Source: an uncultured Candidatus Saccharibacteria bacterium
GTDB lineage: Bacteria > Patescibacteriota > Minisyncoccia > Minisyncoccales > CAYJUL01
Direction of reading: 5' to 3'
NCBI GenBank assembly: GCA_964401295.1
Contig: CAYNXX010000001.1
Coordinates: forward strand, 35,671 to 99,670
Length of the DNA stretch: 64,000 nt
The notes below the pieces were generated by a model, which was given only the letters and a program-made list of their open reading frames with translations, did no database searches and was not told where the DNA came from. This document shows positions 10,444 to 10,861 of the stretch, one piece after another (position 1 is the first letter of the stretch; each line of letters begins with the position of its first letter). The position numbers and the translations under genes are program-made.

Positions 10444-10600
10444 TTAATAAAAATCTGTATCCGGCAAATTGATCGCTAAATATCTTAGTTATCAGTTTGG
10501 CGGATGGAGGAATGGGCCGATTCTCCTTCGTCGCAACGGAACCAGCCTGCGGCTCAAAAATCACCAGGCTGGTCCACTTCTCTTTGCATCTTTCGCCTTT
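10444..10600 (+). ncRNA. candidate short ncRNA (~150 nt) sharing its 5' module with the long RNA; ends approximate
   Basis: Starts behind P1/P2. Consists of the 64-nt module (a long imperfect hairpin), hairpin GGAGGAAT-GGGCCG-ATTCTCC, a 9-bp perfect stem ACCAGCCTG/CAGGCTGGT (10541-10573), and a U-rich tail TTCTCTTTGCATCTTTCGCCTTTC. Confidence 0.4.
10446..10509 (+). repeat. 64-nt direct repeat, copy 1
   Basis: AATAAAAATCTGTATCCGGCAAATTGATCGCTAAATATCTTAGTTATCAGTTTGGCGGATGGAG is identical to 10798-10861. Confidence 0.95.
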
Positions 10601-10671
10601 CAATAAACTCTGAATGAGTAAGAATTTTTGGAGAAAAAAGTGTTTGGAAAGTTTGTGACTATCACAAGTTC

Positions 10672-10700
10672 TTGACAAATATTTTATAGCATGCTATAAT
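10672..10700 (+). promoter_or_regulatory. promoter P3 (perfect TTGACA-17-TATAAT)
   Basis: TTGACA at 10672-10677, a 17-nt spacer, then TATAAT at 10695-10700. Confidence 0.7.
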
Positions 10701-10749
10701 TATAATTGTCGGCGGGAATGAAGAAACTTAGAGCGAACGCCAACAACCC

Positions 10750-10777
10750 TTGACAAAATTTTTCAAAGGAGTATAAT
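10750..10777 (+). promoter_or_regulatory. promoter P4 (TTGACA-16-TATAAT)
   Basis: TTGACA at 10750-10755, a 16-nt spacer, then TATAAT at 10772-10777. Confidence 0.65.
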
Positions 10778-10797
10778 AGAATGTTAAGCCATTGAAA

Positions 10798-10861
10798 AAT
10801 AAAAATCTGTATCCGGCAAATTGATCGCTAAATATCTTAGTTATCAGTTTGGCGGATGGAG
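10798..10861 (+). repeat. 64-nt direct repeat, copy 2
   Basis: Identical to 10446-10509, offset 352 nt. Confidence 0.95.

What the first reader, a model, noticed from the sequence alone, without database searches (positions are those of the whole stretch)
10446..10861. A perfect 64-nt duplication gives two RNAs an identical 5' module: a short (~150 nt) and a long (~1 kb) form
Positions 10446-10509 and 10798-10861 are identical over 64 nt (AATAAAAATCTGTATCCGGCAAATTGATCGCTAAATATCTTAGTTATCAGTTTGGCGGATGGAG). The flanks are unrelated.

The module folds into a ~21-bp imperfect hairpin (ATCCGGCAAATTGATCGCTAA / TTAGTTATCAGTTTGGCGGAT, loop ATATC) with G-U pairs that are valid only on the plus strand.

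- After copy 1 come two further hairpins and a U-rich tail near 10575-10600. That would yield a small RNA.
- After copy 2 the transcript continues for about 900 nt.
- A second shared block, GGAG(G/C)(A/G)ATGGGCC(C)GATTCT, follows copy 1 at 10506 and recurs at 11341 just before hairpin H3.

Perfect identity in a non-coding segment suggests either very recent duplication or strong selection or gene conversion. A common protein- or RNA-binding handle carried by two transcripts would explain the latter.
Basis: seen in the sequence. Interest (0 to 1): 0.65.

Follow-up and report, generated by a model that had tools for sequence, protein, structure and literature searches.

The report
Duplicated start of a new RNA
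The perfect 64-base repeat is real. It is the leader plus first hairpin of a strongly promoted, roughly 1-kb non-coding RNA that belongs to an apparently uncatalogued RNA family of ultra-small (CPR) bacteria, and it is copied upstream behind a second promoter.

Summary
**Observation.** Confirmed: 10446-10509 and 10798-10861 are identical over 64 nt, and each copy lies just downstream of a perfect sigma-70 promoter.

**Setting.**
- The repeat lies in a 1.55-kb ORF-poor block that splits an rseP-proS gene pair. That pair is adjacent in the nearest relatives.
- The block holds the only three perfect promoters in the 64-kb window.
- It also holds four copies of a ~21-bp polypyrimidine/polypurine hairpin ("H") and a terminator.

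**Family.**
- Rfam 15 recognises nothing here.
- A metagenome scan for H found nine other contigs, one from a named Nealsonbacteria genome.
- Five of them show the full layout of strong promoter, H hairpin(s), GC-rich structured body (0.33 kb to more than 1.2 kb) and terminator. The other four are cut or show only part.
- H has an invariant 9-bp core and a covarying apical helix.
- One contig also conserves the stem of the 64-nt module.

**Short locus S.** S is a mosaic sibling of the long RNA L: 100% identical over the module but only about 73% in the adjoining homologous stretch. This points to recent copying or gene conversion. S has no clear terminator.

**Function.** Unknown. I favour a multi-site protein-binding scaffold, with low confidence.

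The parts
10409..10437 (+). Promoter P1: TTGACA-17-TATAAT, 12/12 match, with TG extension
   Evidence: only 3 such matches in 64 kb, 0.03 expected
10446..10509 (+). 64-nt module, copy 1: A-rich leader AAUAAAAAU plus an imperfect ~21-bp hairpin at 10455-10509
10510..10600 (+). Body of the short locus S. It contains the block GGAGGAAUGGGCCGAUUCU (starting at 10506), two weak hairpins (10500-10534, 10538-10575), and a pyrimidine tract at 10574-10597 that resembles only the 5' arm of an H hairpin. No terminator.
10672..10700 (+). Promoter P2: 12/12 match, with TG extension
10750..10777 (+). Promoter P3: 12/12 match. It is followed by the leader AAGCCAUUGAAAAA, which is shared with relatives L139 and L162.
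10798..10861 (+). 64-nt module, copy 2: the 5' end of the long RNA L
10785..11775 (+). Long RNA L, about 990 nt from the predicted P3 start to the terminator. GC is 0.51 against about 0.42 for the genome. No credible ORF.
10920..10970 (+). H hairpin 1
   Evidence: (71.9 bits; 46.9 on the - strand)
11093..11143 (+). H hairpin 2
   Evidence: 64.8 bits
11318..11364 (+). Internal diverged copy of the module 3' arm plus the GGAGCGAUGGGCCCGAUUCU block. It is 73% identical to 10481-10528.
11364..11414 (+). H hairpin 3. Two independent Logan contigs end here.
11577..11630 (+). H hairpin 4: a diverged copy with base-pair-preserving changes
11726..11775 (.). Terminator hairpin (core 11734-11762) with a U run on both strands. 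It ends L on the + strand and the rseP transcript on the - strand.
   Evidence: the - strand U run is read from the sequence

Best explanation
**What it is (shown).** The window carries a giant member of a previously uncatalogued family of abundant, structured non-coding RNAs of CPR/Patescibacteria (the Paceibacteria-Nealsonbacteria neighbourhood).
- The gene lies on the + strand inside a 1.55-kb block that has been inserted between rseP and proS.
- It is driven by tandem consensus promoters, contains four H hairpins, and ends at a bidirectional terminator.
- The H hairpin is about 21 bp, with an invariant UCCUCUCUG/YAGAGAGGA core.
- The 64-mer is the RNA's leader plus its first hairpin.

**Origin of the second copy (inferred).**
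- A second copy of this module, with its own perfect promoter (P1), sits 352 nt upstream. It heads a truncated, mosaic sibling (S) whose other recognisable pieces are only about 73% identical to the long RNA.
- The perfect identity is therefore best explained by a recent copy or gene-conversion event over the module, on top of functional constraint.
- S has no terminator. P1 probably yields both a short species and a ~1.33-kb read-through RNA that carries two modules.

**Mechanism (inferred, low confidence).**
- The H hairpins are repeated, sequence-specific binding sites for a protein partner, so the RNA would act as a multi-site scaffold or sponge. I put this at about 0.35.
- The module hairpin would then be an expansion-tolerant 5' structural element that stabilises or organises the transcript.
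For: **The locus**
- Repeat and fold.
- Three perfect promoters, all on the + strand within 370 nt, are the only ones in 64 kb.
- The block is non-coding. It has no Pfam hits, and a six-frame search of 5.8 billion proteins found nothing. GC is 0.51 against 0.42.
- Insertion: rseP and proS are 8-17 nt apart in L001-L005, L024, L027, L040, L041, L050 and L061.

**The family**
- A metagenome scan for the H pattern, followed by covariance model R1, gives nine contigs above 40 bits on the RNA strand: L096, L122, L137, L139, L161, L162, L184, L185, L192.
- Promoter, H hairpin, body and terminator can all be read in L137, L139, L161, L185 and L192. The other four are cut by a contig end or show only part.
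- P3 shares the CAUUGAAAAA leader with L139 and L162.
- L161 is Candidatus Nealsonbacteria RBG_13_36_15.

**H hairpin structure**
- 86.5% of cells are paired, 10 pairs change on both sides, and 0/500 shuffles reach the observed score. Slid controls give 46-64% paired.
- The four window H copies score 22-28 bits higher on the RNA strand than on the other.
- The small members fold with z -6.3 and -7.3.

**The module in another organism**
- L122 has GUAUCCUGGCAAAUUGAU...AUCAAUUUGUCGGAUAUC as a 27-bp stem closing a ~125-nt insert (z -6.8).
- Where the window has a U-G wobble, L122 has U-A.

**Mosaic identity and recurrence**
- 64/64 identical, against 37/51 in the adjoining stretch.
- Tandem RNA genes that share a leader also occur in L139.
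- An internal tandem duplication occurs in L192.
Against: - There is no expression data. Promoters and terminators are consensus matches only.
Outside H and the leader, members share almost no sequence, so homology of the RNA bodies is not shown.
- The module stem is seen in only one other contig (L122).
- The 64-mer duplication could not be checked against an independent assembly or reads.
- No partner protein is identified. Neighbouring genes vary: yjbQ-like in L137 and L185, and one gene away in L139; an S1-like gene in L096 and L192; a tRNA in L161; rseP and proS here.
- Sequence-specific recognition of a regular A-form helix is unusual. The invariant 9 bp could serve alternative pairings instead.
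Confidence: 0.6

Rival explanations
1. Processing-signal model. The ~21-22-bp H hairpins and the module hairpin are RNase III-type cleavage sites. The long RNA would be a precursor cut into several smaller structured RNAs, and the 5' hairpin would define the mature 5' end. This resembles rRNA operon stems or the phage T7 R1.1-type sites between cistrons (from my own knowledge).
For: - All five hairpins are about two helical turns long with small internal defects.
- They are spaced 170-270 nt apart along L.
- In the small members H sits right after the leader.
Against: - RNase III needs little sequence specificity, so it does not explain a 9-bp core that stays invariant across organisms.
- No cleavage data exist.
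- No rnc gene was examined.
Confidence: 0.22
2. Self-assembling 'ornate' RNA. The RNA works without a dedicated protein, as a large tertiary or quaternary RNA architecture like GOLLD, ROOL or OLE. H purine-pyrimidine helices and the palindromic GGGCCC loop (11349-11354) would mediate RNA-RNA contacts, including S-L pairing (GGGCC in S against GGCCC in L).
For: - Very stable folds.
- Size and modular expansion.
- Conserved loop block AUGGGCC(C)GAUUCU in S and L.
- Known large RNAs form homo-oligomers (PMC12286853, abstract seen).
Against: - No covariation evidence for any long-range or intermolecular contact.
- The bodies are not conserved between members.
- No similarity to GOLLD, ROOL or OLE models.
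Confidence: 0.1
3. Private recent duplication or assembly artefact with no functional meaning. The 64-mer identity only reflects a very young segmental duplication, or a repeat-induced mis-join in a MAG, inside a decaying non-coding insertion.
For: - No second assembly covers the 64-mer.
- The organism has no close relatives in the databases (ProRS at most 73%, RseP at most 62%), so co-variation of the two copies cannot be followed.
- S lacks a terminator, and its tail folds no better than shuffles.
Against: - Each copy sits at the right distance behind its own 12/12 promoter.
- The same stem is conserved in L122.
- The locus has the full layout of a family found in other organisms.
- A streamlined CPR genome keeps 1.55 kb of non-coding DNA here (one search shows that no other gap is comparable).
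Confidence: 0.08

Closest known systems
Tandem 'sibling' small RNAs with shared ends (OmrA/OmrB; PrrF1/PrrF2 with the read-through PrrH). From my own knowledge, not tested here.
   Same: - Adjacent paralogous RNA genes, each with its own promoter.
- A block of identical sequence next to divergent parts.
- Possible read-through from the first gene into the second.
   Different: - Those are RNAs of about 100 nt that base-pair with mRNAs through the shared region. Here the shared part is a closed 21-bp hairpin at the start of a ~1-kb structured RNA.
- The first unit has no terminator.
- No sequence relationship.
CsrB/RsmZ-type multi-hairpin protein sponges
   Same: - A variable number (1-4) of one repeated hairpin motif in an otherwise poorly conserved, highly expressed RNA with a terminator.
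   Different: - Csr/Rsm sites are GGA in loops of short hairpins. Here the conserved element is a 9-bp helix, and the apical loops have no conserved GGA.
- No CsrA link.
- No Rfam match.
Large bacterial RNAs of unknown function (GOLLD, ROOL, OLE, HEARO, raiA)
   Same: - Size class (0.3 kb to more than 1.2 kb).
- Strong predicted structure.
- Higher GC than the host genome.
- Unknown function.
   Different: - No covariance-model match even at E<=10.
- Different taxon (CPR).
- Defined by a repeated polypyrimidine/polypurine hairpin.
TIGR arrays of TIGR-Tas systems (PMC12045711), also found in CPR
   Same: - Repeated conserved RNA elements in a non-coding, transcribed locus of parasitic bacteria.
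   Different: - TIGR arrays are regular: alternating 8-12-nt repeats with 9-nt spacers, or stem-loop units, next to a Nop-domain Tas gene.
- Here the repeats are 47-nt near-identical hairpins at irregular spacing of 173/271/213 nt.
- The neighbours are rseP and proS.
rRNA-operon-type leader (boxA) and 5' processing stems. From my own knowledge.
   Same: - Consensus tandem promoters.
- A leader, (A)ACAUUGAAAAA, that resembles Firmicute boxA UGUUCUUUGAAAACU.
- A long stem follows.
   Different: - No rRNA gene.
- The resemblance is recalled from memory, not tested. No rRNA leader was available in any fetched locus.

Membership tests
Provisional 'H-hairpin RNA' family (defined here) | At least one H hairpin scoring >=40 bits with model R1, and higher on the RNA strand | tested here: met
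   71.9, 65.5, 64.8 and 54.4 bits on the + strand, against 46.9, 43.9, 36.9 and 26.5 on the - strand.
Provisional 'H-hairpin RNA' family (defined here) | Near-consensus sigma-70 promoter upstream on the same strand, and an intrinsic terminator downstream | tested here: met
   - for the window.
- The same layout is read in L137, L139, L161, L185 and L192.
- L096 and L162 show the promoter only, because the contig is cut. L184 shows the terminator only, because its 5' end is cut.
Provisional 'H-hairpin RNA' family (defined here) | Homology of the RNA body outside H and the leader | tested here: not met
   shared words of 9 nt or more are confined to H, the promoter and the leader. Only L161 and L185 align with each other.
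Rfam large ncRNAs (GOLLD, ROOL, OLE, HEARO, raiA) and introns | Covariance-model match | tested here: not met
   - (gathering threshold, whole window).
- (E<=10, 10200-11900): only spurious miRNA-type hits on the hairpins.
Housekeeping RNAs (RNase P, tmRNA, SRP, 6S) | Covariance-model match | tested here: not met
   L185 has a separate bona fide tmRNA.
TIGR array | Regular short dual repeats with 9-nt spacers, or a stem-loop array | tested here: not met
TIGR array | Adjacent Nop-domain Tas gene | tested here: not met
   the eight flanking ORFs scanned give amidase (GatA-type), GatC, two MreB, class II tRNA synthetase (ProRS), M50 peptidase (RseP), RRF and DNA pol III delta'-type hits.
CRISPR array | Regular repeat-spacer periodicity | tested here: not met
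   spacing is 173, 271 and 213 nt, and the repeats are themselves hairpins of 47 nt.
Sibling sRNA pair | Two separately promoted units | tested here: met
Sibling sRNA pair | Each unit separately terminated | tested here: not met
   No + strand terminator after S. The S tail folds with z -1.5.
Csr/Rsm-type sponge | Repeated GGA motifs in hairpin loops | tested here: not met
   Alignment A1: apical loops are variable, and GGA is not conserved.
RNase III substrate | About 20 bp or more of double-stranded RNA | tested here: met
RNase III substrate | Cleavage by RNase III | not testable with these tools
   Needs an in vitro assay or 5'/3'-end mapping.
boxA antitermination leader | NusB/NusE-binding boxA consensus shared with the organism's rRNA leaders | not tested
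   No rRNA gene is present in the window or in any fetched locus. The resemblance is from memory only.

The most novel reading that the evidence does not exclude
The locus is a modularly expanded (~1 kb, or 1.33 kb with read-through) member of a previously undescribed class of abundant structured RNAs restricted to CPR/Patescibacteria.
- A sequence-invariant polypyrimidine/polypurine hairpin is the repeated functional unit.
- Members grow from 0.33 kb to more than 1.2 kb by insertion and internal duplication.
- The perfect 64-nt module pair is a snapshot of that ongoing duplication and gene-conversion process.
Probability: 0.55. Interest if true: 0.8.

Novelty: categorically new. Interest (0 to 1): 0.72.

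Why it matters
- **A rare kind of RNA.** Large structured bacterial RNAs without a known function are rare, and each new class (OLE, GOLLD, ROOL, raiA) has opened new biology.
- **Reduced genomes.** CPR bacteria have tiny genomes with almost no non-coding DNA. A 1-1.5-kb RNA locus behind three consensus promoters must be paying its way.
- **A handle for wider searches.** The family offers a simple searchable signature: the H hairpin (model R1) next to a strong promoter. It also spans a natural size series from about 330 nt to more than 1.2 kb. That makes the minimal functional core and the partner protein directly testable.
- **The original finding.** It turns an odd repeat into a datable evolutionary event. 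One hairpin module shows concerted evolution between two tandem transcription units while their neighbouring sequence has diverged by about 27%.

Tried and rejected
- **Known RNA families.** Rfam 15 at gathering threshold on the whole window, and at E<=10 on the locus and on relatives, gave only a tRNA elsewhere and spurious miRNA hits.
- **Protein-coding explanation.** The ORFs of 81-148 aa have no Pfam hit. A concatenated six-frame pseudo-protein found nothing among 5.8 billion proteins.
- **Orthologous loci by synteny.** Eighty CPR proS loci were fetched. None has sequence similarity or an H hairpin. They showed instead that rseP and proS are normally adjacent.
- **Searches for the 64-mer itself.** A 23-mer from it found nothing in JGI metagenomes. 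A 17-mer gave three hits in viral contigs; I read one (L083, ordinary sequence with no hairpin context) and did not read the other two.
- **Phage or plasmid origin.** blastn found only a promoter look-alike in Proteus phages, and nothing in plasmids. Viral contigs hold no family member.
- **Leader-based scan of viral contigs.** blastn with the family RNAs found no relative among the fetched loci, so I treat the hits as chance matches to an AT-rich pattern.
- **A 17-nt match at 42267-42283.** It lies in an AT-rich intergenic stretch. I judged it a chance match.
- **Independent assembly check of the 64-mer.** The proS and mreB look-ups were not on record.
- **S as a simple 5' copy of L beyond the module.** Support is marginal (z 2.45, 7/500 shuffles) and is driven by the half-H tract.
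- **P1/P2 paralogy.** They are 76% identical over 34 nt, but most of that is the promoter consensus itself, so I make no claim.
- **Literature.** Four searches found no description of such an RNA in CPR. TIGR-Tas was read and excluded.

Full report
**1. The observation**

The 64-mer AATAAAAATCTGTATCCGGCAAATTGATCGCTAAATATCTTAGTTATCAGTTTGGCGGATGGAG occurs exactly twice in the 64-kb window.
- The copies are at 10446-10509 and 10798-10861, both on the + strand. No shuffle produced a match.
- With four extra shared bases (ATTG) the repeat is 71 nt at 96%.
- It folds as an imperfect hairpin of about 21 bp preceded by an A-rich leader. The + strand energy is -26.6 kcal/mol (z -7.75). The complement reaches only -14.9, because several pairs are G-U.
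- The second shared block exists and is longer than reported. 10481-10528 aligns with 11318-11364 at 37/51 columns, or 73% (z 7.1, 0/500 shuffles).

**2. The setting**

The repeat lies in a 1.55-kb ORF-poor gap (10257-11806). The gap lies between proS (8994-10256) and an M50/RseP protease gene (11807-12889), both on the - strand.
- No other gap of this size exists in the window.
- The gap contains the only three perfect TTGACA-N16-18-TATAAT matches in the window, at 10409, 10672 and 10750. All are on the + strand, and 0.03 are expected by chance.
- Each 64-mer copy starts 9 nt (P1) or 21 nt (P3) after a -10 box.
- From 10798 to 11775 the GC content is 0.51, against 0.41-0.43 for the rest of the window.
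- The stretch folds very stably. It ends at a hairpin (core 11734-11762, z -5.4) flanked by U runs on both strands, so it works as a bidirectional terminator (sequence).
- The ORFs inside the gap have no Pfam match. A six-frame pseudo-protein found nothing among 5.8 billion proteins.

The long RNA carries four copies of a 47-nt hairpin that I call H, at 10920-10970, 11093-11143, 11364-11414 and a diverged one at 11577-11630.
- H has a polypyrimidine 5' arm (CCUCCUCUCUG) and a polypurine 3' arm (AGAGAGGAGG).
- Two independent Logan assemblies (SRR5161805, SRR5161795) are 100% identical to the window over the 438 nt beyond rseP. Both stop exactly at H3, as expected at a repeat.

**3. The organism and the insertion**

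The flanking proteins place the organism in the CPR/Patescibacteria, nearest to Gribaldobacteria and Nealsonbacteria MAGs.
- ProRS is at most 73% identical and RseP at most 62% identical to anything in the databases.
- In the nearest relatives rseP and proS are separated by only 8-17 nt (L001-L005, L024, L027, L040, L041, L050, L061).
- The 1.55-kb block is therefore a lineage-specific insertion. It splits an operon and is transcribed against it.

**4. Not a known RNA**

- Rfam 15 finds only a tRNA elsewhere in the window.
- At E<=10 the locus gives only meaningless miRNA-type hits on the hairpins.
- There is no similarity to phages or plasmids, beyond a promoter look-alike.
- Four literature searches found no description.
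- TIGR arrays also occur in CPR, but they have a different anatomy and need a neighbouring Nop-domain gene. Neither condition is met here.

**5. Relatives**

A 23-mer from the module found nothing in JGI metagenomes. A degenerate pattern covering all four H copies returned 120 loci, mostly chance matches. Nine of them are clearly related.

| Locus | What it shows |
|---|---|
| L139 | Consensus promoter, 490-nt RNA with two H hairpins; a second promoter-plus-RNA unit upstream; a yjbQ-like gene one gene away |
| L162 | Consensus promoter and leader, two H hairpins; cut by the contig end |
| L137 | About 350-nt RNA; convergent with a yjbQ-like gene |
| L161 | About 330-nt RNA next to a tRNA gene; from Candidatus Nealsonbacteria RBG_13_36_15 |
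| L185 | About 320-nt RNA; convergent with a yjbQ-like gene |
| L096, L184 | Related to each other; H hairpins downstream of a consensus promoter (L096) |
| L192 | About 880 nt, two H hairpins and an internal ~190-nt tandem duplication; downstream of an S1-like gene |
| L122 | A 1.2-kb, ORF-free contig with three H hairpins |

- L139 and L162 carry a consensus promoter followed by the leader ...AACAUUGAAAAA. That is the same leader as after P3 in the window (AAGCCAUUGAAAAA). An H hairpin follows.
- Promoter, H hairpin, body and terminator can all be read in L137, L139, L161, L185 and L192. The other four contigs are cut or show only part.

I aligned ten H hairpins from five organisms.
- The central 9 bp are almost invariant (UCCUCUCUG / YAGAGAGGA), while the apical helix covaries.
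- 86.5% of cells are paired, and ten pairs show changes on both sides. No shuffle of 500 reaches the observed score, and slid registers give 46-64% paired.
- The covariance model R1 scores true members at 40-72 bits. In the window the RNA strand scores 22-28 bits higher than the other strand.
- R1 finds nothing in the 80 CPR proS loci or in viral contigs.
- The small members fold far better than shuffles (z -6.3 and -7.3).
- None matches any Rfam family.
- Outside H, the promoter and the leader, members share almost no sequence. I therefore treat the family as defined by the H module and the gene layout. Homology of the bodies is unproven.

**6. The 64-nt module in another organism**

- L122 contains GUAUCCUGGCAAAUUGAU ... 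AUCAAUUUGUCGGAUAUC.
- These form a 27-bp stem that closes a ~125-nt insert (-74.7 kcal/mol, z -6.8).
- This is the basal two-thirds of the window's hairpin (GUAUCCGGCAAAUUGAU ... AUCAGUUUGGCGGAU).
- One window U-G wobble is U-A in L122, and the window's G-G mismatch is a G-U pair in L122.
- The stem is thus a conserved, expansion-tolerant element rather than a private accident.
- In L122 it is internal, preceded by at least 470 nt of structured RNA. It is therefore not a general 5' handle.

**7. The relation of S to L**

S (10446 to about 10600) is a mosaic of three recognisable parts.

| S segment | Matches | Identity |
|---|---|---|
| First 64 nt (10446-10509) | 5' end of L | 100% |
| 10481-10528 | Internal stretch 11318-11364, just upstream of H3 | 73% |
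| 10574-10597 | 5' arm only of an H hairpin | 73% (19/26) |

- L therefore holds a third, degenerate copy of the module's 3' arm.
- If the module had drifted like its neighbours (about 27% divergence), 64 identical positions would have a probability of about 0.73^64, or 2e-9 (my arithmetic).
- The identity thus reflects a recent copy or gene conversion limited to the module, plausibly helped by constraint.
- Selection alone would normally tolerate wobble and compensatory changes, such as those seen against L122.
- S has no terminator, and its tail folds no better than shuffles (z -1.5).
- I expect P1 transcripts to read through at least partly. That would give a 1.33-kb RNA with two modules, besides any short species.
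- Similar tandem arrangements recur in the family. L139 has two adjacent promoter-RNA units with an identical 17-nt leader. L192 has an internal tandem duplication.

**8. Mechanism**

*Shown*
- A promoter-driven, terminated, highly structured + strand non-coding locus.
- A conserved hairpin with covariation.
- Modular duplication.

*Inferred*
- The invariant 9-bp core, repeated one to four times in otherwise unconserved RNAs, looks most like a repeated binding site for a specific partner. I favour a protein-binding scaffold or sponge at about 0.35, with the module as a 5' structural element.
- The rivals are RNase III-type processing signals that cut a precursor into smaller RNAs (about 0.22) and a self-assembling ornate RNA that uses the purine-pyrimidine helices and the GGGCCC loop (about 0.1).
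- A meaningless young duplication or an assembly artefact cannot be excluded for the 64-mer itself (about 0.08). It would not change the identification of the locus.
- The leader's resemblance to Firmicute boxA is recalled from memory and could not be tested.

**9. Verdict**

It overstates the short RNA and misses the larger picture.
- The locus appears to belong to a new, CPR-restricted family of large structured RNAs.
- The evidence is comparative but thin: about ten loci and no expression data.

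Noticed in passing
window 10257-11806, compared with L001-L005, L027, L041: The RNA block splits an otherwise tightly linked rseP-proS pair (8-17 nt apart in relatives). 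Its terminator is bidirectional, so proS must have acquired its own promoter. One candidate on the - strand lies at 10291-10263 (TGGACT-17-TAGAAT).
   Followed up: partly
window 11528-11555: A perfect tandem duplication of a 14-mer (CAACGACTCTACGG, two copies) inside the long RNA. This is another sign of ongoing small duplications in this locus.
   Followed up: no
window 11349-11354 and 10515-10519: The conserved block AUGGGCC(C)GAUUCU places a palindromic GGGCCC in L and GGGCC in S. These could form loop-loop contacts (L-L or S-L).
   Followed up: no
L139 90-490: A second promoter-plus-RNA unit (~370 nt, with its own terminator) lies directly upstream of the H-hairpin RNA. It shares the 17-nt leader ATTGGAACATTGAAAAA and starts with a long hairpin, but has no H hairpin. 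Rfam does not recognise it at the gathering threshold.
   Followed up: partly
L137 72-476, L185 about 760-1150 (- strand), L139 1957-2340 (- strand): In three family loci a yjbQ-like (UPF0047) gene lies near the RNA gene. It is directly convergent in L137 and L185, and one gene away in L139. The gene was identified by eye from the translation, not by a family search. In L096 and L192 the RNA instead follows an S1-domain (rpsA-like) gene.
   Followed up: no
L192 5268-5450 and 5476-5690: The ~880-nt family member contains two tandem copies of a ~190-nt structured domain. A hicAB-like toxin-antitoxin pair sits between the S1-like gene and the RNA promoter.
   Followed up: no
L161 3620-3750: The sequence starts and ends like a tRNA (acceptor and D arm, then T arm and acceptor) but carries an insert of about 55 nt. 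It lies behind its own promoter. ARAGORN and Rfam do not call it.
   Followed up: partly
L089, L093, L145, L183 (for example L089 - strand, around 1750-1800): Unrelated metagenome contigs share a conserved 5'-UTR hairpin: GGGACTTCCTCTCTGTCATAATAAAC...AACAGAGAGGAGGAATAC(T/C)ATGAA. It would sequester the Shine-Dalgarno sequence just before an ATG, so it is a possible translational control element.
   Followed up: no
L147 and L166: Arrays of 8-10 copies of a unit carrying CATACTCCTCCTCTCTG...AGAGAGGAGG, at spacings of mostly 55, 110 or 220 nt. Origin unknown; unrelated to the family.
   Followed up: no
window 22722-22750 and 22905-22925: Short (GAAAATA)n-type tandem repeats flank what look by eye like rpmJ and infA genes on the - strand. 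This gap is otherwise ordinary.
   Followed up: no
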